Positions 47,261-64,000 of a DNA stretch of 64,000 bases are shown here, piece after piece. Below the pieces are notes generated by a model. That model made no database searches. It worked only from the letters and a program-made list of their open reading frames with translations, and was not told where the DNA came from. The stretch comes from Lachnospiraceae bacterium (GTDB lineage Bacteria; Bacillota; Clostridia; Lachnospirales; Lachnospiraceae): NCBI GenBank assembly GCA_021772075.1, contig JAETNQ010000006.1:13380-77379 (forward strand), in the 5' to 3' direction. The position numbers were made by a program, and so were the translations under genes. Every line of letters begins with the position of its first letter. Position 1 is the stretch's first letter.

Positions 47261-47389
47261 CGTGAGAAGAACTTCTAAGACTTGCACCAGTGGGTGCTTC
47301 GTCAAGAAGTTCTAGACTTGCTTCGCAAGTCTTTCTCACGCCGGAGAACGCCTGAAATACGGCGTTCTTCTCATGGATGATTTATGCCG
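47258..47389 (+). repeat. ~115-nt structured dispersed element, copy B (extra hairpin)
   Basis: Same architecture plus inserted AGACTTGC-TTC-GCAAGTCT. Confidence 0.9.
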
Positions 47390-47419
47390 TGGAGAAATTT
47401 TGGAAAGGAGAAGAAAAAA

Positions 47420-49378
47420 ATGGTTATTACATTGAAAGACGGAAGTAAAAAAGAGTATGCGTCGCCCATGAGCGTGATTGATATCGCGTCGGATATCAGC
47501 GAAGGGCTGGCAAGGGTGGCCTGTGCAGGGGAAATCGATGGGAAAGAGGCGGATCTGCGGACGATGGTGGACGGCGACTGCCAGCTCAATATATTGACTG
47601 CTAACGATAAACAGGGTCTTCAGGTAGTAAGGCATACGGCTTCCCATGTGCTGGCAGAGGCGGTGAAGAGGCTTTATCCCGATGCCAAGCTGGCGATCGG
47701 GCCAAGCATCGACACCGGGTTTTACTATGATTTTGAACATGCTCCTTTTTCCAGGGAAGACTTGGATCAGCTGGAAGCGGAAATGAAGAAAATTATCAAA
47801 GAGGGAAAGAAGCTGGAGAAATTTACGCTGCCCAGGGAAGAAGCCATGAAATTTATGGAAGAAAAAGGCGAGCCTTATAAAGTGGAATTGATTCGTGACC
47901 TGCCGGAAGATGCGGTGATTTCCTTCTATCAGCAGGGGGATTTTGTGGATCTTTGCGCCGGTCCTCATTTGATGAGTACCAAAGGGATTAAAGCGTTTAA
48001 GCTGATCTCCTCTTCGGGCGCTTATTGGCGGGGGAATTCCGACAATACCATGCTGCAGAGGATTTATGGTACCGCATTTAATAAAAAAGAGGAATTGGCG
48101 GATTATCTGGAATATCTGGATAATATTAAAAAAAGGGATCATAACAAGCTGGGCAGGGAGATGGAATTGTTCGCTACGGTGGACGTGATCGGGCAGGGGC
48201 TTCCGCTGTTAATGCCCAAAGGAACAAAAATGATCCAGACAATGCAGCGCTGGATCGAAGATGAAGAGGAAAAACGGGGTTATATGAGAACCAAGACCCC
48301 TTTGATGGCGAAAAAAGATCTGTATATCATTTCCGACCACTGGGATCATTATAAAGAAGGGATGTTTGTGCTTGGTGATGAGACGGATGAAAAATCGGAA
48401 GTCTTCGCCCTGCGCCCTATGACATGCCCGTTCCAATATTATGTTTATAAGCAGAGTCAGAAATCGTACAGGGATCTGCCGTGCCGTTACGGGGAGACTT
48501 CCACCATATTCAGGAACGAAGATTCCGGCGAAATGCACGGGCTTACCCGTGTGCGCCAGTTTACGATTTCCGAAGGGCATCTGATCGTACGTCCGGACCA
48601 GATCGAGGAAGAGTTCAGAGGCTGCGTGGATCTTGCAAAATATTGCATGACGACGCTGGGACTCCAGGATGATGTAACCTACCGATTATCTTTGTGGGAT
48701 GCGAATAATCAGGATCACTATCTGGGAACAGAGCAGCAGTGGAACGAAGTGCAGGATATGATGCGTACGATTTTGAACCATATCGGCATTGAGTACACCG
48801 AGGAAGAAGGAGAAGCGGCGTTTTACGGGCCGAAACTGGATATTCAGGCGAAAAATGTATATGGCAAGGAAGACACGATGATTACGATCCAGCTGGATAT
48901 GTTCCTGGCAGAGCGTTTCGATATGACATATGTGGATCGTGACGGGGAAAAGAAACGGCCTTATATTATCCACAGGACTTCGATGGGGTGCTATGAGAGG
49001 ACATTGGCATGGCTGATCGAGAAATACGAAGGCAAGTTCCCTACATGGCTTTGCCCGGAACAGGTAAGGGTTCTTCCGATTTCGGAAAAATACGAAAGCT
49101 ATGCGAAAGAAGTGGAAAAGGAACTGAAGGAGAATGGCATATTGACTACGGTGGATAACCGTTCCGAAAAGATCGGCTTCAAGATTCGGGAAGCGAGATT
49201 GGCAAAACTGCCGTATATGCTTATTATAGGGCAGAAAGAAGAAGAGGATAAGACCGTTTCGGTTAGAAGTCGTTTTGCAGGAGACGAGGGCGTAAAACCT
49301 TTGGATGAATTTATCGGACAGATTTGCAAGGAAATCAGGACGAAAGAAATCCGGAAAGAAGAGATCGCGGAAAATTAG
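47420..49378 (+). CDS. thrS: Threonine--tRNA ligase
   Basis: TGS domain, RHTASHVLA, DLCAGPH, RDHNKLG, RPMTCP, FYGPKLD. Confidence 0.97.
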   Translation: MVITLKDGSKKEYASPMSVIDIASDISEGLARVACAGEIDGKEADLRTMVDGDCQLNILTANDKQGLQVVRHTASHVLAEAVKRLYPDAKLAIGPSIDTGFYYDFEHAPFSREDLDQLEAEMKKIIKEGKKLEKFTLPREEAMKFMEEKGEPYKVELIRDLPEDAVISFYQQGDFVDLCAGPHLMSTKGIKAFKLISSSGAYWRGNSDNTMLQRIYGTAFNKKEELADYLEYLDNIKKRDHNKLGREMELFATVDVIGQGLPLLMPKGTKMIQTMQRWIEDEEEKRGYMRTKTPLMAKKDLYIISDHWDHYKEGMFVLGDETDEKSEVFALRPMTCPFQYYVYKQSQKSYRDLPCRYGETSTIFRNEDSGEMHGLTRVRQFTISEGHLIVRPDQIEEEFRGCVDLAKYCMTTLGLQDDVTYRLSLWDANNQDHYLGTEQQWNEVQDMMRTILNHIGIEYTEEEGEAAFYGPKLDIQAKNVYGKEDTMITIQLDMFLAERFDMTYVDRDGEKKRPYIIHRTSMGCYERTLAWLIEKYEGKFPTWLCPEQVRVLPISEKYESYAKEVEKELKENGILTTVDNRSEKIGFKIREARLAKLPYMLIIGQKEEEDKTVSVRSRFAGDEGVKPLDEFIGQICKEIRTKEIRKEEIAEN

Positions 49379-55471: not shown

Positions 55472-56629
55472 ATGGGGAAGGATATGGATTTGAACAAAAA
55501 TAATTTAAAGAAGATAAGAGGATTGATTATTTTTACAGCAATAGTATGTCTGGCGGTAATCAAAATAGATATTGTGTTAAACGGGTTCTTTTTTGTTATA
55601 GGGATACTGAAGCCTTTTATTTATGGCGCGGTGGTTGCCTTTGTGCTGAATATCCCTATGGGCGCGATTGAGAAAAGGCTGTTCGGGGATGGAAAGCATT
55701 CCAAAATGCAGAAGGCGAAAAGGCCGGCGAGCATATTTCTTGCTTTTGTATCGGTGATATTGATTATGCTGGTGGTTGTTGTAACGGTAGTTCCCCAGCT
55801 GACAAAGACGATGATAGAGTTGGGAAATAAGATTCCTTTGTTTCTTAGCAGCATGCAGACATCCTTGGAACAGCTTCTGAAGGAGCGGCCGGAGCTGGTG
55901 GCTATGCTGGAAGAACTTGACTTTGACAGCATAAACTGGAATTCCGTGTTCAACGGTATTGTGGATTTTATGAAGAACGGTCTGGGCAACGTGGTAACTT
56001 CTACGGTGATGGTGGCATCCACCATTATAGGCGGCGTAGTGAATCTGTTCGTGGCTCTCGTATTTTCTTTTTATATACTGGCTCAGAAAGAGAAGCTGGG
56101 AGACCAGCTGAAAAGGGTGATGCATGCCTATTTTTCCAGAGGGTTATATGAAAGGATATTGGAAGTGGCTTCCCTGGCAAACCGGAATTTTTCGAATTTT
56201 ATTACGGGGCAATGCATGGAAGCGGTGATCCTGGGCAGCATGTTCGTGCTGGCTATGGCGGTATTCCGCTTCCCTTATGCCCTGCTGGTTGGGGTATTGA
56301 TCGCCTTTACCGCGCTGATACCGATTGTGGGGGCTTTTATCGGCTGTTTCGTAGGAACGTTCCTTATTATGGTGGATGATCCGGTAAAAGCGATCTGGTT
56401 TTTAGTTCTTTTTATCGTGCTGCAGCAGGTAGAGGGGAATTTGATTTATCCGCATGTGGTGGGGAATTCGGTTGGGCTTCCTTCTATATGGGTCTTGGCG
56501 GCAGTTACAGTCGGTGGCAGCCTGATGGGTATTGCCGGGATGCTTATTTTTATCCCTATCGTATCTACCGTTTATGCTTTGCTGCGCGATGATGTGAACC
56601 AGAAGAATGAAAGGAAAAGAAAGGCTTGA
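55472..56629 (+). CDS. AI-2E family transporter
   Basis: ALIPIVGAFIG, QQVEGNLIYPHVVG. Confidence 0.88.
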   Translation: MGKDMDLNKNNLKKIRGLIIFTAIVCLAVIKIDIVLNGFFFVIGILKPFIYGAVVAFVLNIPMGAIEKRLFGDGKHSKMQKAKRPASIFLAFVSVILIMLVVVVTVVPQLTKTMIELGNKIPLFLSSMQTSLEQLLKERPELVAMLEELDFDSINWNSVFNGIVDFMKNGLGNVVTSTVMVASTIIGGVVNLFVALVFSFYILAQKEKLGDQLKRVMHAYFSRGLYERILEVASLANRNFSNFITGQCMEAVILGSMFVLAMAVFRFPYALLVGVLIAFTALIPIVGAFIGCFVGTFLIMVDDPVKAIWFLVLFIVLQQVEGNLIYPHVVGNSVGLPSIWVLAAVTVGGSLMGIAGMLIFIPIVSTVYALLRDDVNQKNERKRKA

Positions 56630-56748
56630 AAACAGGAATCAGGGTCGCCGAAAATAAGATGAAGATAAGAAATGATAAAATTGATGGAAAATATTTAAAA
56701 AAGTAGTTGATTTTATATCGGGCAGCGTTTATAATAGTTATTGCGTTT

Positions 56749-56821
56749 CGGGGTGTGGCTCAGGTGGTAGAGCGCTACTTTAGGGAAGTAGAGGCCGCAA
56801 GTTCAAGTCTTGTCACTCCGA
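56749..56821 (+). tRNA. tRNA-Pro with anticodon AGG
   Basis: Acceptor CGGGGTG/CACTCCG plus A73, D arm GCTC/GAGC, anticodon arm CTACT-TTAGGGA-AGTAG, T arm GCAAG-TTCAAGT-CTTGT; no encoded CCA. Confidence 0.93.
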
Positions 56822-56827
56822 TAGGGA

Positions 56828-56872
56828 AAAAGTCCTTGAAAATGCGGGAATACAGCATTTCCAAGGATTTTT
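56828..56872. terminator. Hairpin between tRNA and convergent prophage gene (bidirectional terminator or att arm)
   Basis: AAAAGTCCTTGAAAATGC...GCATTTCCAAGGATTTTT. Confidence 0.55.
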
Positions 56873-56907
56873 CTTTTGTGGAACTAATGGAGGATAGATA
56901 CTATTAT

Positions 56908-57828
56908 TTATTCAATGATCCATAGTTCCCAACCTCTAATTGCTATCCTAATGTCTCCGCCGGTTTCGTTATCCCCGGATTCATCTTCATGGGCATATGC
57001 CCAGGCTCTGTTAAATCGAAGTTTTCCAGTAGACGGATCGTATGTCCGGTCCAAAAGGTTGCATTGCTGTTTGTCTTCTACAATAGATAAATTGTTGCTT
57101 GAGCCATGTTGGCATCTGGGATTCCAATCCGTAAAAAAGTATAAAAAGTTATCTTTTGTCCAATTTTGATAATCATTTGGAAATAGTTTATTTAAGAAAA
57201 AGACTGGTGCGCATATATAATGGTTTACCCAGCCTCCTGCCCAGTCTTGTACTGAACCTTTTGCGAGATCATATTCTGTATCAAATTCGTTTTTATAGGG
57301 GTTGCTGATACCGGTATTATTTGGAGCCAGCTTGTTGATTGTATAGGTAATAATGTTGCCGTCCGGCGATATGGTTTTAGTAAATCTTGGATAAGCAGCG
57401 GTATCATTATTTTGGATCTCTTGATAGATAATCTTCTTTACCCCTTCCAGACCTCCGCTACCCAATTTTTTTGGCACTGAATCAGCACCTACCACCCATT
57501 TACCGTTAGAGTCCTCATAAAATCTTAATCCGCCTAATCTGCTGTTTATACCATTTACCAGATTGGTAAGGGATGTGATCAGCTGTGCCAGACTATTCTT
57601 TATGGATTTGACAAGCGTTACGTCTGCGGCATACCCCGCCGTCTGGTTTTCGTTGGTAGTCACGCCCTTGAAGGTTCCCAGCTTGTCCTGTAAGTTCTTT
57701 CCGTCGTTAAACTCCACATCGGAGGCGTGAGTCCAGAAAGAATACCTGTTCCACTTTTTGTTCCCCGGTGTATTGTCTATACAGTGTCTGTATTTTCGGT
57801 TTTTTAAAATGGTTTCATTGATTGCCAT
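56908..57828 (-). CDS. Phage tail-fibre/receptor-binding-like protein
   Basis: YSFWTHASDVEFNDGKNLQDKL, coiled segment, LGGLRF...GADSV motif, distinct C-terminal domain. Confidence 0.55.
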   Translation of the reverse strand: MAINETILKNRKYRHCIDNTPGNKKWNRYSFWTHASDVEFNDGKNLQDKLGTFKGVTTNENQTAGYAADVTLVKSIKNSLAQLITSLTNLVNGINSRLGGLRFYEDSNGKWVVGADSVPKKLGSGGLEGVKKIIYQEIQNNDTAAYPRFTKTISPDGNIITYTINKLAPNNTGISNPYKNEFDTEYDLAKGSVQDWAGGWVNHYICAPVFFLNKLFPNDYQNWTKDNFLYFFTDWNPRCQHGSSNNLSIVEDKQQCNLLDRTYDPSTGKLRFNRAWAYAHEDESGDNETGGDIRIAIRGWELWIIE

Positions 57829-57840
57829 TGAAATTCCTCC

Positions 57841-58149
57841 TTATATCCAAAATTCGCCTACATCAATATCCGGTTCTGTATGGGACAAATGATGGGGGCT
57901 GAATTTGTTCAAGTTTAATATGTACTCCTGTGTATTTCTGACTTTTGCTTCCAGATAATTCATTAAATCGGCAGAATAGTGGTGTACTTCGCTTTGCTGG
58001 CTTAAAAAATTATTTGCGTCTGTGTATTGGCGTGCGTCTATGAGATGGTTATAGACGTCCATCACAGGCTGTCCTTTCAAGTCCATGTCGCAGAAGTATG
58101 TCCTGTCGTCAATTCCTTCCGGGTAGATAGAAACATATGGGTATTGCAT
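57841..58149 (-). CDS. Phage hypothetical protein
   Basis: RBS AAGGAGG; SIYPEGID, paralog-like to the next gene; ends DVGEFWI. Confidence 0.7.
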   Translation of the reverse strand: MQYPYVSIYPEGIDDRTYFCDMDLKGQPVMDVYNHLIDARQYTDANNFLSQQSEVHHYSADLMNYLEAKVRNTQEYILNLNKFSPHHLSHTEPDIDVGEFWI

Positions 58150-58158
58150 AGCCCCTCC

Positions 58159-58512
58159 TTATTCTCCCAGCCATACATCGTTGCGGCAGCAGATTTCCGG
58201 TTCGTTGTTGAAATAAATACATTGATGTTTCTGGATTCCCATGATCTGTACGTTCCGTATTTCTTCCTCAATAGCATTGATGGTTTCCGCATTGATGTTA
58301 TAGCGAGATAGTATGTCTGCATTTTCCGTTATTTTTTTAGCCGCCAGATCATATAGTCCACGCATTTTATAATCCGTTATTTCATTAATTAAGGATGCGA
58401 CGGAATCGTCGGCATCCTTAAAATGGTGCTGCGGAATTAAACTGTTGGGGAAATTGCTGTATTCGTGGGTATATGATGAGGCGTTTTGGATGATAAAATC
58501 ATTATTATTCAT
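58159..58512 (-). CDS. Phage hypothetical protein
   Basis: SNFPNSL..HHFKD..D; ends EPEICCRNDVWLGE. Confidence 0.7.
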   Translation of the reverse strand: MNNNDFIIQNASSYTHEYSNFPNSLIPQHHFKDADDSVASLINEITDYKMRGLYDLAAKKITENADILSRYNINAETINAIEEEIRNVQIMGIQKHQCIYFNNEPEICCRNDVWLGE

Positions 58513-58667
58513 TGGAAATATTATCCTCCTATATAGGTTGCATTAGCACATGTCGTATATCGACAAAACCGAAATTTGAATATCCATTTGTGATGCTTTG
58601 CAGCCTTTTTTAATTCATCATCTATATTCGTGTTATTTTTTATTGCAATTGTTTTATGCTTGCATTT

Positions 58668-60014
58668 TTACTCATTTAACTCTTCAAAATCTGCTTTTAT
58701 AAAGGAGCAATAAAAACCATAAATACTACATGTATAACTGGGACTTGGATTATATATATGTACTTGTCTTAGATAGTGCCTTTCTAATGATCCAATATTA
58801 ACATTTTGATAAATTCCAACTTTATATACATAGTTACTATTATTATATGGATGTGCTGTTCCTGCTAAATTAGAGGAAGAATTCATAGTGATATCAAGGA
58901 CTATATAGTCCTTTAATATTTCATAATGCTCTTTGCTTATTGTTATACCAATATATATTCCAGTATCTTTAGCTAATGTATAAGAAGATCCAGAAGTAAT
59001 TTGTGTTTGTGATGCATTTATACATCTGTTAATTGGAATATAGAGATATTTTATATCTGCCGATCCATTTGAAGAAATATTTGCTCCAATCAGTGCCTTT
59101 TCTTCGGATGTAACAAATCGATGTGTTTCGTCTTCAGTAATCATGGATGCTGGATGTGTTTCAGGATGAACATATTTATTAGCACCATCTTCTATATGAA
59201 GCAATTTTTCTTTTTGATCGGAAGAATAGTCGTTGGAAGATAATCCCATACCTTCTATTTTATCAATTTTTTCTGCCAGTGCATTTGCCAGAACTGGTTC
59301 TGAAATATAATTGCAGTCATTTTCCAGTTGACTAATTTTTGTTGGAATGTTGTCGCTGGGTTGTGGTACAATCCATCCAATCCCGCCATCCGTCATGCCA
59401 ACTACTTGTCCGACATCTCCCCCATCAGGTATATGGATTTGAGCGTTGGAAAGGTGTCCAGCTACAGACTGGAGGTTTGCCTGGATATCAGAAGACAATA
59501 AATTTTGGCCGATGCTCCCTTCTTTGACAATCGCGGAAATGGTGTTATCTTCGCCGACTGATATTTGGATGACATCACCAGCAGACCCGGTATAAATATC
59601 AACTAATCCTTCAACCGGTATTCTGGATTGGCTGTTGTCGCTCCATGTTATGACGATTGCATTTGCTTCTTCATCGAAAAGGGCGGACTGGAATATTAAA
59701 GTTTTTGGTATATTGATGGCAAAGGTTGTATTATCTCTTCTGGTGACTGTTATAATTCCGGTGGAAGGATCATTGCTTAGATCTTTAATCAGGATATTTG
59801 CTTCTTCAATGTTGAGTTTTGCATCAAAAAGATTTTGATGTGCATGAGTATCTGATAAATGGTTCTCATCTATAATCTTATGGTTTATTTGATTCAACTC
59901 ATCTGTTAAATTCCGTTGGTTTTCTTTGTCGTTTCCTACCAATACAGCATCGGTATGTGTGTACGGGTAGAATGGATTCCCAAGATAGTCTTTCATCCAT
60001 TTCAATGCATTCAT
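58668..60014 (-). CDS. Phage tail-fibre-like protein
   Basis: FYPYTHTDAV, PTKISQLEND, GLSSNDYS..KEKL..IEDGANKYVHPETHPASMITED..HRFV tail-fibre repeat motifs. Confidence 0.65.
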   Translation of the reverse strand: MNALKWMKDYLGNPFYPYTHTDAVLVGNDKENQRNLTDELNQINHKIIDENHLSDTHAHQNLFDAKLNIEEANILIKDLSNDPSTGIITVTRRDNTTFAINIPKTLIFQSALFDEEANAIVITWSDNSQSRIPVEGLVDIYTGSAGDVIQISVGEDNTISAIVKEGSIGQNLLSSDIQANLQSVAGHLSNAQIHIPDGGDVGQVVGMTDGGIGWIVPQPSDNIPTKISQLENDCNYISEPVLANALAEKIDKIEGMGLSSNDYSSDQKEKLLHIEDGANKYVHPETHPASMITEDETHRFVTSEEKALIGANISSNGSADIKYLYIPINRCINASQTQITSGSSYTLAKDTGIYIGITISKEHYEILKDYIVLDITMNSSSNLAGTAHPYNNSNYVYKVGIYQNVNIGSLERHYLRQVHIYNPSPSYTCSIYGFYCSFIKADFEELNE

Positions 60015-60015
60015 T

Positions 60016-60666
60016 TTATAGCACCTCCTCGGTTGCGGTTTGGCCGCCGTCTATATATGCCACGGATTCCTTGATAAAATTCATATTTGACTGTAGATCA
60101 TCAATTTTAAAATTTAATAAATCTAAATTGACGGAAGTCTGGGTAATATTCCCGATCTGCTGCATCAGGGCGGCCACCCTTCGGTCTGTCGCCTGTATCT
60201 GGGACAGGAGAGAGCGGTATAAGGAAAGATCGCTTTCGTTTATCGCGATATCGTCATCAAGACCTGCCATAACATTTAATTCGGCTGGCAAAGTTGACCA
60301 AGAGTAGGACATTCCTCTCTCGTCTATGTCTTTTTTGAATTCAACTACAAAATGTATCTTTCCGGATTTTCTTGTTACAAACTTGGAGATATACCAATTT
60401 AATAACAGAGAATCGTCTTCGATCCTGATTTCGGTTACCGTGTATACACCGCGTTCTTTTAATGCATTATTATAAGATATGGTGCATTTTCTTGTAGACA
60501 GGTCGCATCCGTCAAAATAGCGGGGAATTCGAATTTTTACCATTTCCGCATTATCATCCGTGACGACACCAATATGATATAATTCTTCTGGTATATCTAT
60601 TTTTCTGGTGTTTGGATTGATGATTAATTCTGGTTCATATATTTTAGAAGTATTCAGGAAAAACAC
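60016..60666 (-). CDS. BppU-like upper baseplate protein
   Basis: DDNAEMVKIRIPRYFDGCDLS...W.I...T..SG.I.F.VEF...WSTLP pattern; GTG start after AGAAAGGA. Confidence 0.6.
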   Translation of the reverse strand: MFFLNTSKIYEPELIINPNTRKIDIPEELYHIGVVTDDNAEMVKIRIPRYFDGCDLSTRKCTISYNNALKERGVYTVTEIRIEDDSLLLNWYISKFVTRKSGKIHFVVEFKKDIDERGMSYSWSTLPAELNVMAGLDDDIAINESDLSLYRSLLSQIQATDRRVAALMQQIGNITQTSVNLDLLNFKIDDLQSNMNFIKESVAYIDGGQTATEEVL

Positions 60667-60720
60667 ATCCTTTCTATTTTTGATAATTATTTTAGTATAT
60701 AAAATTCACTAAACAGCAAT

Positions 60721-61929
60721 TTATAGCCAAATCGGAAACTGCATCAGATACACCCGAAACGGTGCATTTAAGTATCCATCCATAGAATCTGCTTCAGTAA
60801 ATCCTATCCGGCCAGCATAAACGGGTTCTAATATATTTTCATACCAGCTATTATTTGAAAGATTCTGGCATTGCACCTTTAAAACTATTGTACGATGTAG
60901 ATTCCAACCGGTCGGAACATTGTAACTGATATTTCTACTTATCGCGTCTGGTGTAACACCCTCCACTATTGCGTATTTGGGTAAATTGCTGTTTATCTCA
61001 TTAATTTCATTCTGCAAATTTTGTATTTGCGAGTCTTTTTCCTGTAACACATAATGTAATAATGCGCTGCTGGGGACTTTATTTATTTCGTTTTCATTGT
61101 TCTGGGAAATATTGGAATTAAGAAGGAATATACGGTTGGTTTCTGATTTATTATAATAATCAGCCAAGTCAATATATGTATTTCCGATAAATTCCCAACC
61201 GGTTGTTTCCCCGTTTAGATTTATGTATTCATTATAATTGTCGTTGCTGCCGGAAGAAGCATTAGCTTTGGGTACCAAATAAATAATATTCGTATTTATA
61301 TTAGATGTCGGAAGCCGGTCAACAATTTGCCTTTGTATAATACTGTCTGCGGTATGTTCCGCAATTTTCAAATCAGTATAATTTTTTGATTCTGTTAAAA
61401 ATTCGTTATTTAGTTTTAGGGAATCAGATTTCGTATAATACTGTGTATCATGGGAATGGGATTCATCGACGACAGAAGCAGTTCCATCGGAAGAAACTTG
61501 GATGGAATCGCTGGATTTGATGATTCCGGGCACATTTTCGTCAGCGATTCCATAGGTCGTGTCGGTAAATACAGCATTGGGCGGGACTGATTTTCCGATC
61601 GTGAATCCGCTGTCCCTGACGGTATATCCGCTGCCGTCAAAAACAGGTATGCCGCCAGCAGTAACAACTCCTGGAATTCCGTAGATTTGCTGCCGGTTTA
61701 CGACTTTGTCCAATCCTATTTGCTGTTTGGTGACTCCGTGGGGATTATTCCTATTGCCTGTATGTTCCTGCAAATTTTCGCTTGTGGCAAAATTATGGTC
61801 GGCATCCTGCAATTTTTTTATGCTGCTGTCGATCAAATCCATATTCATGTTCTGGACTTGGACATCGTATTTTTCATCGATATTTGGCTTCCCCAATTTT
61901 AAGTTTGTAGTTAAGTTAATAGTATCCAC
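60721..61929 (-). CDS. Phage tail-fibre-like protein
   Basis: LKLGKP...NMDLID, H..N.NNPHGVTKQQIGL, ADENVPGIIK, IVDRLPT...IYLVP, WEFIG..DLADYY. Confidence 0.7.
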   Translation of the reverse strand: MDTINLTTNLKLGKPNIDEKYDVQVQNMNMDLIDSSIKKLQDADHNFATSENLQEHTGNRNNPHGVTKQQIGLDKVVNRQQIYGIPGVVTAGGIPVFDGSGYTVRDSGFTIGKSVPPNAVFTDTTYGIADENVPGIIKSSDSIQVSSDGTASVVDESHSHDTQYYTKSDSLKLNNEFLTESKNYTDLKIAEHTADSIIQRQIVDRLPTSNINTNIIYLVPKANASSGSNDNYNEYINLNGETTGWEFIGNTYIDLADYYNKSETNRIFLLNSNISQNNENEINKVPSSALLHYVLQEKDSQIQNLQNEINEINSNLPKYAIVEGVTPDAISRNISYNVPTGWNLHRTIVLKVQCQNLSNNSWYENILEPVYAGRIGFTEADSMDGYLNAPFRVYLMQFPIWL

Positions 61930-63673
61930 CTCCTATCATTTCAGTTAATTCGTCATGTGAATATTTGCCCAAAACGCCATGTTTATAATTTGACAATACC
62001 CGATGGCTTCCCATTTCCTTCACTACATCATCATATAATGGGTAAAATTTCATTAACGACAGAGTGGAAGTGCCGGAACTGAAATCATGGGACACAGATT
62101 TAATAATATATTGTTCTGGAATGTCTGAATTAGAATTTTGGTACAATATTTTGAGATTGACATCATAAAAGGGAACGAGATTCGTGGTAAGGGTAATGCT
62201 GTCCGTGAGCCTGGAATTCTTCCAGTTTTCCCATTTGGCACGGGAGAGCGCGAGGGAATCGGAAGTAATCTGGTCGTATTCGCCGCCTGTTTTTACATCC
62301 GGTATTTCGCCAAGTTTTTGTACCGTAAACGGAGAGCCGGGAACGATTTCCAGTTCCACGGACTCGCAGCTGTACTTTTTTTGAAAGTATTCTTTTGAAT
62401 ATTTCTTACACATTGTTCCATCATGGAAAGCATAATCAGATCCAACAGTGCCATCGGTCAGGACGTTCATCCCATGTGCTTGCCAATGGCCGAGGAGATA
62501 AGCGTTAAATACCGTCTGGCCATCGATCCTTTGGCTTTTTATTTTAAAGGCAAAAACAGCATCTTTTTCCAGGACATTGCGCATAATAGGCTCATTTGTA
62601 TTTTCGTCCAGGATACGGATGGTTCCTAAATTGTTGATATTTAACTTTGGATTGGCTGCATTTGCAGATGGTATTTTAACGGCAATCGTATCGCCGTTAT
62701 AGTATGCTTCATCGTATCCGTTGATGGAACAGTGGTATGTATTATTCTGATAGCTGCATTGCTCGGTATAAAAATCCACTTCGATGATCTTTCCCCATAC
62801 TTCGCAGATGTTTCTGACTGTTGCCATGTCTATATTAATGTTTTCTGAGATATAGATCCTTTGAAGGAATTCGTTGCTGAAAATAATATCATCTTTATAA
62901 CAGCTTGGAACCATGCGGCAAGTAAATACATTGTATTCGTCGAAAAATATTTCATAATTGGGATATAGATCGCGGAGTTTTTCCAATATGGACAAGACGG
63001 TGCATCCGCTGGAGAATTCAAGGTCGTAAGGGATGGTATTCCATAGGGGGTTCTGGTTCCTGTAATCCTGCCAGCGGTCATTGTTCTGGGGCAATGCTTT
63101 ATACTCGCCCACATCGTCAACCATATAATTGTCTATGCCGCCCAGCTGTTTAAGAACAGTTATGATCGCTTCGCGTATAATATTATGCTTGATGATTTCG
63201 CCGGTTTCCGTATTTTCTTCATATGCTGGAATTTTGGTTGTCAATGCGCCGATTTGTCCGTTTTTTGTCCCGTCTAATTTGGACATATAATCGCTGCATG
63301 AAATTGTCAATTGGTTGGTCGTGCTGTCAAAATTACCGGATGTGCTTGTATAGACATAGTGGCCTTGCGGATAATAGAAGTATTCTTTTGTCCTCATATC
63401 CATGATACCGACATAAATGCGTAGTTCCTTGTTTAACCAGACGGCGCCGTCTTCTATGATTTTTGTGTTATTTCTGTCATATAAAGTCGGAATTAATGCA
63501 GCAGAAAAAGTTCTCCTGATAGAAGAGGAACTATCAATGGAAGCAGTTCCTCCAATAATAGTTCCTTTCAATGTGTCGAGTATTGTTTTTCCGTCATCTT
63601 TCATAATTTCAATTTTTAACGAAAGATGCAGAGGTTTTTGCAATATTAATTTAAGGTCTTTTGCTGTAATCAT
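61916..63673 (-). CDS. Phage tail/baseplate protein (DUF5048-like)
   Basis: IDSSSSIRRTFS, PYDLEFSSG, NICEVWG, RLTDSITL; start MITAK at 63673. Confidence 0.6.
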   Translation of the reverse strand: MITAKDLKLILQKPLHLSLKIEIMKDDGKTILDTLKGTIIGGTASIDSSSSIRRTFSAALIPTLYDRNNTKIIEDGAVWLNKELRIYVGIMDMRTKEYFYYPQGHYVYTSTSGNFDSTTNQLTISCSDYMSKLDGTKNGQIGALTTKIPAYEENTETGEIIKHNIIREAIITVLKQLGGIDNYMVDDVGEYKALPQNNDRWQDYRNQNPLWNTIPYDLEFSSGCTVLSILEKLRDLYPNYEIFFDEYNVFTCRMVPSCYKDDIIFSNEFLQRIYISENINIDMATVRNICEVWGKIIEVDFYTEQCSYQNNTYHCSINGYDEAYYNGDTIAVKIPSANAANPKLNINNLGTIRILDENTNEPIMRNVLEKDAVFAFKIKSQRIDGQTVFNAYLLGHWQAHGMNVLTDGTVGSDYAFHDGTMCKKYSKEYFQKKYSCESVELEIVPGSPFTVQKLGEIPDVKTGGEYDQITSDSLALSRAKWENWKNSRLTDSITLTTNLVPFYDVNLKILYQNSNSDIPEQYIIKSVSHDFSSGTSTLSLMKFYPLYDDVVKEMGSHRVLSNYKHGVLGKYSHDELTEMIGGGYY

Positions 63674-64000
63674 TCGTTCCACCATTCCTCTTCAATATCG
63701 GACAGGCTTGTGTAATATAAGTCGCGTTCGGATTCATAGTTTCCGATTTCTGTCCATTCAAAAGAGATATCCCGGTTGGCATATGTTTCATTAGCCGTAT
63801 CGGCCGGGTCGCCAGTAACTACCATAAGCCATATCCTGCCGTCAAAATGTTTCAATATTTTCGGCATCCCGTCAGCTAGGAAATCCATGATTTTCTTTTG
63901 GTAAGGTATCCGTAAAGCGTCCTCCATGACCAAACCGCAGTTTTCTTCATCCAGTTCTATAAATTTACCCCTGCAGCTGCCTTTATCATAATTAGAAACT
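63670..64000 (-). CDS. Phage tail-region protein, 5' part outside window
   Basis: Frame is open to the edge: VSNYDKGSCRGKFIELDEENCGL...ILKHFDGRIWL...ISFEWTEIG. Confidence 0.7.
   Translation of the reverse strand, partial: VSNYDKGSCRGKFIELDEENCGLVMEDALRIPYQKKIMDFLADGMPKILKHFDGRIWLMVVTGDPADTANETYANRDISFEWTEIGNYESERDLYYTSLSDIEEEWWNE

What the first reader, a model, noticed from the sequence alone, without database searches (positions are those of the whole stretch)
56749..56821. tRNA-Pro with an A34 (AGG) anticodon, next to a prophage junction
Seen: a fully paired cloverleaf with Pro identity elements (C1:G72, A73, G35-G36) and loop TT-AGG-GA, with the anticodon at 56782-56784. Established: bacterial A34 tRNAs are normally limited to tRNA-Arg(ACG), edited to inosine by TadA; other ANN tRNAs are rare and reported mainly in some Firmicutes. 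Inference: this lineage either has broadened TadA specificity (I34-Pro) or decodes with unmodified A34, which could affect +1 frameshifting at CCN codons. The gene is probably also the prophage attB.
Basis: partly seen in the sequence, partly recalled or inferred. Interest (0 to 1): 0.68.

Follow-up and report, generated by a model that had tools for sequence, protein, structure and literature searches.

The report
Proline tRNA with A-starting anticodon
This is a real, conserved, promoter-driven proline tRNA whose anticodon starts with A (AGG); it has replaced the usual GGG tRNA in this gut Lachnospiraceae genus and in about a quarter of the family, and the base-35 pocket of the tRNA-editing enzyme TadA changes along with it, which suggests but does not prove that the A is turned into inosine.

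Summary
Window 56749-56821 (+) is a canonical tRNA-Pro with anticodon AGG at 56782-56784 (ARAGORN; Rfam 60.7 bits). It is not a sequencing error: the gene is identical in 19 of 24 sister species and in at least 120 metagenome contigs, and the G34 allele was found in none.

The genome has Pro AGG, CGG and UGG but no GGG, and it also has Leu(AAG). In a sample of 201 genera of the family:
- 57 carry Pro(AGG) and 58 carry Pro(GGG), with no overlap.
- AGG loops are always U32/A38 and GGG loops always C32/G38.
- The state switched at least 7 times on an RpoB tree.
- rpoB uses more CCU and CCC where AGG is present.

TadA residue 22 is the residue that contacts base 35 in the S. aureus TadA-RNA structure. 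It is Gly in 28/29 AGG genera and 11/30 GGG genera.

I favour I34 made by TadA (about 55%) over an unmodified A34 (about 40%), which works for Pro in E. coli and Salmonella.

The "prophage attB" reading is only partly supported. A block of about 24 kb with phage-tail-like genes follows the tRNA, but I found no integrase and no att repeat. The same trait occurs in many genomes, so this is one example of an under-described but widespread feature.

The parts
56707..56735 (+). Sigma-70-type promoter of the tRNA gene: -35 TTGATT, 17-nt spacer, -10 TATAAT. The -10 hexamer ends 13 nt before the tRNA 5' end.
   Evidence: 10 of 12 consensus matches. Both hexamers are invariant or nearly so in 12 species of the genus, while the surrounding flank diverges.
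56749..56821 (+). tRNA-Pro(AGG) gene, 73 nt, with no encoded CCA.
   Evidence: ARAGORN; Rfam RF00005 at 60.7 bits; cloverleaf as the minimum-energy fold; 100% identical in 19 of 24 sister species.
56780..56786 (+). Anticodon loop U32 U33 A34 G35 G36 G37 A38; the anticodon AGG is at 56782-56784.
   Evidence: Read from the sequence. The same loop, TTAGGGA, occurs in all 57 family matches and in 118 of 119 AGG tRNAs of the global scan. Pro(GGG) tRNAs of the family all have CTGGGGG.
56833..56877 (+). Intrinsic terminator: a hairpin followed by UUUUUCUUUU.
   Evidence: RNAfold gives -20.8 kcal/mol, z -4.2, with 0 of 200 shuffles folding as well. Every sister species has a hairpin plus T-run of different sequence at this place. 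The simple terminator scan missed it.
55472..56629 (+). Upstream neighbour, an AI-2E family transporter gene. This is the conserved chromosomal context of the tRNA.
   Evidence: Pfam PF01594, E 2.6e-50. The upstream flanks of most sister species map here.
56908..64000 (-). Start of a low-GC block of about 24.4 kb (genome contig C43 70201 to about 94620) that runs about 17 kb past the window end. It carries phage-tail-like genes, all on the minus strand, and is probably a prophage remnant.
   Evidence: GC is 33-43% here against 45-53% upstream. Hits: phrog_1887 tail protein at 1e-11 plus weak tail-fibre hits; a tape-measure fragment (PF10145, phrog_4211) and other PHROG families further on. The downstream flanks of sister species map to C43 at about 94625. 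No integrase and no att repeat.

Best explanation
Window 56749-56821 is the chromosomal, single-copy, independently transcribed gene for a functional tRNA-Pro with anticodon AGG. It works beside tRNA-Pro(UGG) and tRNA-Pro(CGG).

Shown here: the gene and its A34 are real and under strong purifying selection. AGG and GGG are mutually exclusive across the family, and the switch goes with a change of the 32/38 pair from C32/G38 to U32/A38. Genera with AGG use more CCU and CCC in rpoB.

Inferred: A34 is most likely deaminated to inosine by the genome's TadA. That enzyme keeps the residues that hold G36 (F144, R149) and has Gly at position 22, the residue that lines the pocket for base 35. The enzyme would then accept U33-A34-N35-G36 and edit Arg(ACG), Leu(AAG) and Pro(AGG), which are the three four-fold codon boxes that start with C. 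IGG would read CCU, CCC and weakly CCA. G37 is kept for m1G37.
For: The gene is real.

A34 is fixed:
- The gene is 100% identical in 19 of 24 sister species.
- At least 120 metagenome contigs carry A34 and none carries G34.

Expression signals: a promoter conserved in 12 species and a terminator.

Replacement of GGG:
- The genome has Pro AGG, CGG and UGG only. The two complete sister genomes show only three or four Pro-like hits, none of GGG type. Other families of the order have GGG.
- In 201 genera, 57 have AGG and 58 have GGG, with none having both; about 16 would be expected if the two were independent.
- The AGG body outside the anticodon arm equals a GGG tRNA of another genus, G109.

Loop retuning: all AGG loops are TTAGGGA and all GGG loops are CTGGGGG.

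Repeated switching: at least 7 changes on well-supported branches of an RpoB tree and at least 6 on a ThrS tree.

Codon use: the genome has CCT 24%, CCC 21.5%, CCA 10% and CCG 45%. In rpoB, CCY is 56% in AGG genera and 34% in GGG genera at equal GC3, and the independent pairs mostly go the same way.

TadA link:
- An intact TadA is encoded on contig C77.
- An unbiased scan of all TadA columns ranks residue 22 first in the independent-pair scan and second by the raw Fisher test, after residue 152. It is Gly in 28/29 AGG genera and 11/30 GGG genera.
- Gly22 together with a non-basic residue 152 is found in 26/29 AGG genera and 1/28 GGG genera. Independent pairs go the same way in 5.7 of 7 and never the opposite way, p about 0.03.
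- Residue 22 is S. aureus TadA G22 and E. coli R26. A review describes it as the residue that H-bonds base C35, and says its side chain narrows the C35 pocket in E. coli (PMC10586758).
- H53, E55, C83, C86, F144, F145 and R149 are invariant in all 59 TadAs.

Precedent:
- S. pyogenes TadA accepts A or C at position 35 (PMC11472039).
- In O. oeni only the ANG-type A34 tRNAs (Arg, Leu) carry I34 (PMC8072771).
Against: - No RNA-level evidence could be obtained.
- E. coli TadA leaves AGG unedited, both in an M. jannaschii tRNA body and in proL G34A.
- Unmodified A34 reads CCU and CCC equally in E. coli and Salmonella, so deamination is not needed for function.
- Gly22 is also the residue in S. aureus and B. 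subtilis TadA. I have seen no report of Pro(AGG) in those species and did not check their tRNA sets, so Gly22 looks permissive at most.
- 9 of 28 AGG-bearing genomes from other orders and phyla have N, I, D, E or R at that position.
- Pro(AGG) shows no association with Leu(AAG) in the family, odds ratio about 1.1.
- The sign tests rest on only 6-7 supported contrasts and on 163 column/residue splits scanned, so they would not survive correction for multiple testing.
Confidence: 0.55

Rival explanations
1. The tRNA is functional, but A34 stays unmodified. The two G:C pairs at codon positions 1 and 2 let an A34 anticodon read CCU and CCC, and to some degree all four CCN codons. A G34-to-A transition in the GGG gene is then nearly neutral or mildly beneficial and has been fixed many times. 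The 32/38 change retunes ribosome binding for the weaker wobble base. The TadA differences would be lineage noise, or would reflect something other than editing of this tRNA.
For: - Salmonella proL G34A and an M. jannaschii tRNA(AGG) in E. coli are unmodified and read CCU and CCC about equally; the latter reads all four Pro codons (PMC11066159).
- E. coli proL-ANN is detected unmodified at wild-type level (bioRxiv 10.64898/2026.05.15.725136).
- O. oeni keeps unmodified A34 in its Thr and Ser tRNAs even though it has TadA.
- The trait recurs across unrelated phyla, and 9 of 28 of those genomes lack Gly at TadA position 22.
- There is no association with Leu(AAG).
Against: - This reading predicts no link between TadA and the Pro anticodon. 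Yet the TadA column that tracks AGG versus GGG best is the one residue reported to contact base 35.
- In the sampled relatives and loci, the non-Arg A34 tRNAs seen were Leu(AAG) and Pro(AGG), both of the A-N-G type that keeps TadA's G36 determinant. None was seen in the Val, Ala, Thr, Ser or Gly boxes of this genome.
- CCC rises as much as CCU in AGG genera. This fits I34 at least as well as A34.
Confidence: 0.4
2. The A34 is an assembly or sequencing error, or the gene is a decaying or silent copy.
For: The genome is a draft of 103 contigs.
Against: The 73 nt are identical in 19 species assemblies. The A allele is in at least 120 metagenome contigs and the G allele in none. The promoter and terminator are conserved while the flanks diverge. 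No other tRNA in the genome is cognate for CCU/CCC.
Confidence: 0.02
3. The tRNA was brought in by the adjacent phage-like element, that is, it is a phage-borne tRNA.
For: Phage-tail-like genes begin 87 bp downstream of the tRNA.
Against: The tRNA and its upstream neighbour are syntenic in sister species that lack the block. The gene faces the block from the conserved side. The same tRNA body is shared by genera across the family.
Confidence: 0.02

Closest known systems
tRNA-Leu(AAG), read as IAG, of Lactobacillales (Oenococcus oeni; Streptococcus pyogenes and oral streptococci)
   Same: It is a bacterial A34 tRNA of a four-fold box with an A-N-G anticodon that has replaced the GNN isoacceptor. 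The lineage keeps TadA, and synonymous codon use shifts with the tRNA (PMC11472039, PMC13249217, PMC8072771). This genome also carries Leu(AAG).
   Different: The amino acid is different and base 35 is G instead of A. The known S. pyogenes editing consensus is UAMG, which does not include G35. Editing of the Pro tRNA has not been shown. S. pyogenes TadA has Ala at the position equivalent to residue 22 and Lys at 152, unlike the Gly22 plus non-basic 152 signature seen here.
Laboratory tRNA-Pro(AGG): Salmonella proL G34A (Chen et al. 2002, as cited in PMC11066159), E. coli proL-ANN (bioRxiv 10.64898/2026.05.15.725136), and M. jannaschii tRNA(AGG) in E. coli
   Same: Same anticodon in a bacterial cell. 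These tRNAs are functional, read CCU and CCC about equally, and have no fitness cost.
   Different: Those are engineered or selected single-base mutants that stay unmodified in enterobacteria. Here the tRNA is natural, fixed across a genus and about 28% of the family's genera, and always carries U32/A38 in place of the C32/G38 of the local GGG tRNAs. It sits with a TadA that differs at the base-35 pocket.
Eukaryotic cytosolic tRNA-Pro(AGG), read as IGG, edited by ADAT2/ADAT3
   Same: Same anticodon, and the same replacement of GGG by AGG in the Pro box.
   Different: The eukaryotic enzyme is a heterodimer with loose sequence specificity that needs the whole tRNA. Bacterial TadA is a homodimer that reads the anticodon loop sequence (PMC10586758).
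Naturally unmodified A34 tRNAs: Mycoplasma tRNA-Thr(AGU); O. oeni tRNA-Thr(AGU) and tRNA-Ser(AGA)
   Same: Non-Arg A34 tRNAs of four-fold boxes that are retained in bacteria.
   Different: Their base 36 is U or A, so they lack TadA's G36 determinant. Pro(AGG) keeps G36.

Membership tests
tRNA (Rfam RF00005), proline acceptor | Cloverleaf that scores above the family's gathering threshold | tested here: met
   60.7 bits against 29, matching model positions 1-71 in full. ARAGORN calls Pro(agg). The minimum-energy fold is a cloverleaf.
tRNA (Rfam RF00005), proline acceptor | Bacterial ProRS identity elements A73, G72, G35 and G36, plus G37 for TrmD (established knowledge of E. coli ProRS and TrmD) | tested here: met
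   C1:G72, A73, G35, G36 and G37 were read from the sequence. Charging itself was not tested.
Bacterial I34 tRNAs (TadA substrates) | Genomically encoded A34 in a loop that matches the TadA determinants U33-A34-x-G36, with Y32, R37 and A38 | tested here: met
   The loop is U32 U33 A34 G35 G36 G37 A38, compared with the consensus YUAMGRA of S. pyogenes editing sites.
Bacterial I34 tRNAs (TadA substrates) | Base 35 within the range accepted by characterised TadA enzymes (C for E. coli and S. aureus; C or A for S. pyogenes) | tested here: not met
   Base 35 is G. E. coli TadA left AGG unedited. No characterised bacterial TadA is known to accept G35.
Bacterial I34 tRNAs (TadA substrates) | An intact TadA encoded in the same genome | tested here: met
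   A 173-aa ORF on contig C77 has HAE and PCQMC motifs and matches B. subtilis, S. aureus and E. coli TadA structures at 8e-55, 1.9e-50 and 1.2e-39. F144 and R149 are kept.
Bacterial I34 tRNAs (TadA substrates) | A34 read as G in cDNA, or inosine shown chemically | not testable with these tools
No G34 form occurs among metagenome contigs, but those are DNA assemblies and do not bear on RNA.
Naturally unmodified A34 tRNAs | A34 remains adenosine in the mature tRNA | not testable with these tools
   Same limitation.
tRNA gene used as prophage attB | Phage DNA directly at the 3' side of the tRNA, with an empty site in relatives | tested here: met
   Tail-like genes start 87 bp after the tRNA. Sister species have 0.1-1.1 kb before the gene that lies about 24.4 kb away in this genome.
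tRNA gene used as prophage attB | An integrase gene inside the element | tested here: not met
   Pfam and PHROG scans of the larger ORFs of the block (22 scanned) found no integrase or recombinase.
tRNA gene used as prophage attB | A direct repeat of the tRNA 3' end (att core) at the far junction | tested here: not met
   No repeat of 12 nt or more of the tRNA 3' end occurs anywhere in the assembly. No shared 9-mer occurs between the two junction regions.

The most novel reading that the evidence does not exclude
In Lachnospiraceae, including this genus, TadA has an opened base-35 pocket (Gly22 plus a non-basic residue 152 on helix alpha-5). It deaminates tRNA-Pro(AGG) as well as Arg(ACG) and Leu(AAG). 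This would be the first bacterial I34 proline tRNA and a three-substrate TadA covering every four-fold codon box that starts with C. The trait would have been gained and lost at least seven times within one family, each time with retuning of the 32/38 pair and a shift of Pro codon use. That would make it a natural replay of the early steps of the eukaryotic ADAT expansion.
Probability: 0.5. Interest if true: 0.75.

Novelty: new member of a known kind. Interest (0 to 1): 0.55.

Why it matters
[quoted passage not shown] A 2026 preprint still lists Pro(AGG) among the four-fold-box ANN tRNAs that are absent in prokaryotes, with only Leu(AAG) and Thr(AGU) fixed in some genera.

Here the AGG tRNA is fixed in a whole genus and occurs in about 28% of sampled Lachnospiraceae genera, a dominant family of the human gut. 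It has swapped with GGG repeatedly. That gives many natural replicates in which to ask three things: what an A34 or I34 tRNA costs or buys, how the 32/38 pair is retuned, how codon usage follows, and whether bacterial TadA can widen its substrate range at position 35 as the eukaryotic enzyme did.

If TadA does edit it, mRNA sites with UAGG in anticodon-arm-like hairpins would also become candidate editing sites in these bacteria. For this particular window the finding is one instance of that wider trait and is not unique.

Tried and rejected

2. I looked for an "edited" or GGG allele of this exact tRNA among metagenome contigs and found none. This only shows that the DNA allele is A.

3. I asked whether Pro(AGG) rides on a TadA already relaxed for Leu(AAG). 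The two are not associated in 201 genera: AGG+AAG+ 44, AGG+AAG- 13, AGG-AAG+ 108, AGG-AAG- 36, by hand count. I dropped this as an argument.

4. I asked whether CUA codons force I34 on Leu(AAG) because Leu(UAG) is missing. Rejected: sister species, including two closed genomes, have Leu(UAG), so its absence from this draft is probably an assembly gap.

5. A TadA gene tree as the scaffold for counting switches was too weakly supported, with 2 of 56 branches supported. ThrS gave a good tree, but the family has three ThrS paralogue types, so I repeated the count on single-copy RpoB. Two RpoB rows (G164, G103) had faulty ORF extraction and were left out.

6. I tested whether Gly22 is universal in AGG-bearing lineages of other phyla. 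It is not: 19 of 28 have it.

7. att repeats and an integrase for the prophage reading: none found.

8. ARAGORN's tRNA-His(atg) (82 nt) and tRNA-Ile(tat) (90 nt) elsewhere in the genome look like false calls. I did not count them as A34 tRNAs.

9. The two Rafels-Ybern papers (MBE 2019, RNA Biol 2018) are not held in the library. Their content is taken second-hand from reviews.

Full report
**1. The observation**

The window holds one tRNA gene. ARAGORN calls tRNA-Pro(agg) at 56748-56822. Rfam's tRNA model matches 56749-56821 end to end at 60.7 bits, against a gathering score of 29 (E 2.5e-11). Read directly from the sequence:
- All four stems are paired, with two G.U pairs (G4.U69 and G49.U65).
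- The loop is U32 U33 A34 G35 G36 G37 A38.
- The discriminator is A73 and the first pair is C1:G72.
- RNAfold returns the cloverleaf as the minimum-energy fold.

**2. The A is real and the gene looks expressed**

The window is C43:13380-77379 of a draft genome of 3.48 Mb, 46.5% GC and 103 contigs.

- The 73-nt gene is 100% identical in 18 sister species of the genus and, split over two contig ends, in a nineteenth of 24. The five without it are mostly incomplete bins.
It occurs with G34 in none.
- A TTGATT-17-TATAAT promoter sits at 56707-56735 (10 of 12 matches). Both hexamers are invariant or nearly so in 12 species, while the flanks average 69% column identity.
- A hairpin plus U-run follows at 56833-56877 (-20.8 kcal/mol, z -4.2). 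Every sister species has its own hairpin plus T-run there.

**3. It replaces GGG**

ARAGORN on the whole genome finds Pro AGG, CGG and UGG and no GGG. It also finds Arg(ACG) and Leu(AAG). The His(atg) and Ile(tat) calls are 82 and 90 nt long and look spurious. In the two closed genomes of the genus, a DNA search with the AGG tRNA finds only three or four Pro-like genes, none of GGG type. Other families of the order carry Pro(GGG).

**4. How common it is**

- An anticodon-arm plus T-arm pattern was scanned over one genome per species of 185,579 species.
- The hits are mainly Lachnospiraceae. They also include Christensenellales, Bacteroidales, Cytophagales, and single Succinivibrio, Verrucomicrobia, Hyphomicrobiales and Erysipelotrichaceae genomes.
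- Five records carry the identical 73 nt, among them Candidatus Eisenbergiella intestinipullorum. This places the genus in the Lachnospiraceae.

In a sample of one genome from each of 201 genera of the family:
- 57 have the AGG pattern and 58 the GGG pattern. None has both; about 16 would be expected if the two were independent. There were no control hits.
- 152 have Leu(AAG).
- AGG is not associated with Leu(AAG). My hand count from the two tables gives 44/13/108/36, an odds ratio of about 1.1.

**5. The loop is retuned**

Every AGG match has the loop TTAGGGA (U32, A38). Every GGG match has CTGGGGG (C32, G38). In the global set, 118 of 119 AGG loops are TTAGGGA.

Outside the anticodon arm, this AGG tRNA equals the GGG tRNA of another genus, G109. 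The two share AGAGCG, the variable loop AGGCC and the T arm GCAAGTTCAAGTC. The genome's own CGG and UGG tRNAs differ there. So AGG descends from the GGG lineage, and the change of base 34 goes with a change of the 32/38 pair. This is the mark of a selected, working tRNA. Both mechanisms below can explain it: retuning of ribosome binding, or A38 as part of TadA's extended motif YUAMGRA.

**6. Repeated switching and codon use**

On a tree of single-copy RpoB from 30 AGG and 30 GGG genera, the state needs at least 7 changes on well-supported branches and 11-12 on the best tree. This genome sits in a supported clade of 12 AGG genera. A ThrS tree of 32 genera gave at least 6 changes, but ThrS has paralogues in this family.

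In this genome, Pro codons in ORFs of 300 aa or more are CCT 24%, CCC 21.5%, CCA 10% and CCG 45%.

| rpoB codon use | AGG genera | GGG genera | p |
|---|---|---|---|
| CCU | 36% | 24% | 0.001 |
| CCC | 20% | 10.5% | 0.01 |
| CCG | 35% | 53% | 0.0007 |
| GC3 | 0.50 | 0.515 | 0.83 |

Independent pairs mostly go the same way (4.1 same, 0.2 opposite), but there are too few for significance.

**7. Inosine or adenosine?**

*For unmodified A34.* E. coli TadA does not edit AGG, either in an M. jannaschii tRNA body or in proL G34A. Such tRNAs read CCU and CCC about equally and carry no fitness cost (PMC11066159; bioRxiv 10.64898/2026.05.15.725136). O. oeni keeps unmodified A34 in its Thr and Ser tRNAs (PMC8072771).

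*For I34.* The genome encodes an intact TadA on contig C77 (173 aa). I fetched TadA from the 30 AGG and 30 GGG genera and scanned every alignment column.

| Own TadA residue | AGG genera | GGG genera |
|---|---|---|
| 152 is Lys | 1/29 | 20/30 |
| 22 is Gly | 28/29 | 11/30 |
| 151 is Arg | 21/29 | 4/30 |
| 155 is Glu | 16/29 | 2/30 |

- Residue 22 ranks first in the scan by independent pairs on the RpoB tree. The other top columns lie on the C-terminal helix.
- Gly22 together with a non-basic residue 152 is found in 26/29 AGG genera and 1/28 GGG genera. Of 7 supported independent pairs, 5.7 go the same way and none the opposite way (p about 0.03).
- The alignment to solved structures shows that this TadA's numbering equals S. 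aureus TadA numbering. Residue 22 is E. coli R26, and residues 151, 152 and 155 are E. coli E155, I156 and Q159.

Only after this scan did I find the structural description. In the S. aureus TadA-RNA complex, base C35 hydrogen-bonds the backbone carbonyl of G22. In E. coli, the side chains of R26 and R152 narrow that pocket, which may explain why no other base is accepted. F144 and R149 hold G36, and helix alpha-5 contacts the tRNA (PMC10586758). F144, F145, R149 and the catalytic residues are invariant in all 59 TadAs. The Gly22 signal follows the Pro anticodon and not the Leu(AAG) state.

*Caveats.*
- S. aureus and B. subtilis TadA also have Gly at position 22, and I know of no Pro(AGG) in those species, though I did not check. 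Gly22 therefore looks permissive at most.
- 9 of 28 AGG-bearing genomes from other orders and phyla have N, I, D, E or R there.
- The sign tests rest on 6-7 contrasts among 163 splits scanned.

I therefore put I34 at about 55% and unmodified A34 at about 40%.

**8. The element downstream**

- Upstream, the M20 peptidase and AI-2E transporter genes are syntenic with sister species.
- Downstream, the flanks of seven sister loci map to C43 at about 94625, after only 0.1-1.1 kb in those species. This genome therefore has about 24.4 kb extra directly after the tRNA, running about 17 kb beyond the window.
- GC drops to 33-43% in the block. The genes all lie on the minus strand.
- Annotated genes include a tail protein (phrog_1887, DUF5048), weak tail-fibre hits, a 371-aa tape-measure fragment, several PHROG families of unknown function, a RelA/SpoT-domain protein, an aminotransferase, and a 1751-aa protein with no hit.
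- I found no integrase, portal, terminase or capsid gene. No repeat of the tRNA 3' end of 12 nt or more occurs anywhere in the assembly, and the two junctions share no 9-mer.

The block is best read as a prophage remnant, or another tail-gene island, at an insertion hot spot next to the tRNA. Use of the tRNA as attB is plausible but not shown.

**9. Comparison with what is known, and verdict**

The closest natural precedent is Leu(AAG), read as IAG, in Lactobacillales. The closest functional precedents are the laboratory Pro(AGG) tRNAs of Salmonella and E. coli. The papers I could read name only Leu(AAG) and Thr(AGU) as lineage-fixed non-Arg A34 tRNAs in bacteria. A family-wide Pro(AGG) therefore seems undescribed, although stray Pro(AGG) genes are in GtRNAdb counts.

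Earlier notes of this scan (read after my) describe the same picture in other genomes. They are not independent evidence, but they show that this window is one of many instances.

This is a new member of a known kind. Interest is moderate to good as a trait and modest as a single locus.

Noticed in passing
genome contig C3:1239-1324 (outside the window): tRNA-Leu(AAG) with loop C32 U33 A34 A35 G36 G37 A38. The same type is present in 152 of 201 sampled genera of the family. No Leu(GAG) was found in 41 relatives. Leu(AAG) seems to be the norm in Lachnospiraceae, well beyond the Lactobacillales discussed in the literature.
   Followed up: partly
whole genome, ORFs of 300 aa or more: A-ending codons are strongly avoided in the three C-starting four-fold boxes that have A34 tRNAs: CGA 6.8%, CUA 2.5% and CCA 9.9% of their boxes. 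ACA, GCA, GUA and GGA are at 23-33%, and UCA is also low at 10.6%.
   Followed up: no
L151:8342-10433 (-), about window-equivalent 71962-74053, beyond the window end: Inside the phage-like block there is a 324-aa protein with a RelA/SpoT nucleotidyltransferase domain (PF04607, 2e-16; phrog_32462, 5e-61). It overlaps the next gene, a 375-aa phrog_1974 protein. This could be a phage-borne small alarmone synthetase or a toxSAS-type pair.
   Followed up: no
L151:2571-7826 (-), about window-equivalent 66191-71446: A 1751-aa ORF in the tail-gene block has no Pfam or PHROG hit at all.
   Followed up: no
window 47384-49378 (+) and loci L332-L391: Threonyl-tRNA synthetase exists in three divergent types in this family, at about 70-82%, 50-54% and 38-47% identity to the window's copy. 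Several genomes carry two types, so ThrS is a poor species marker here.
   Followed up: partly
genome contigs C57:56843-56924 and C83:124-213: ARAGORN calls an 82-nt tRNA-His(atg) and a 90-nt tRNA-Ile(tat), plus one undetermined tRNA. Their lengths and sequences look like false positives or odd tRNA-like elements.
   Followed up: no
own assembly versus sister genomes G015 and G020: tRNA-Leu(UAG) is present in most sister species, including both closed genomes, but is absent from this draft. Ala(UGC) and Ile(GAU) are absent too. tRNA clusters near rRNA operons are probably unassembled.
   Followed up: partly
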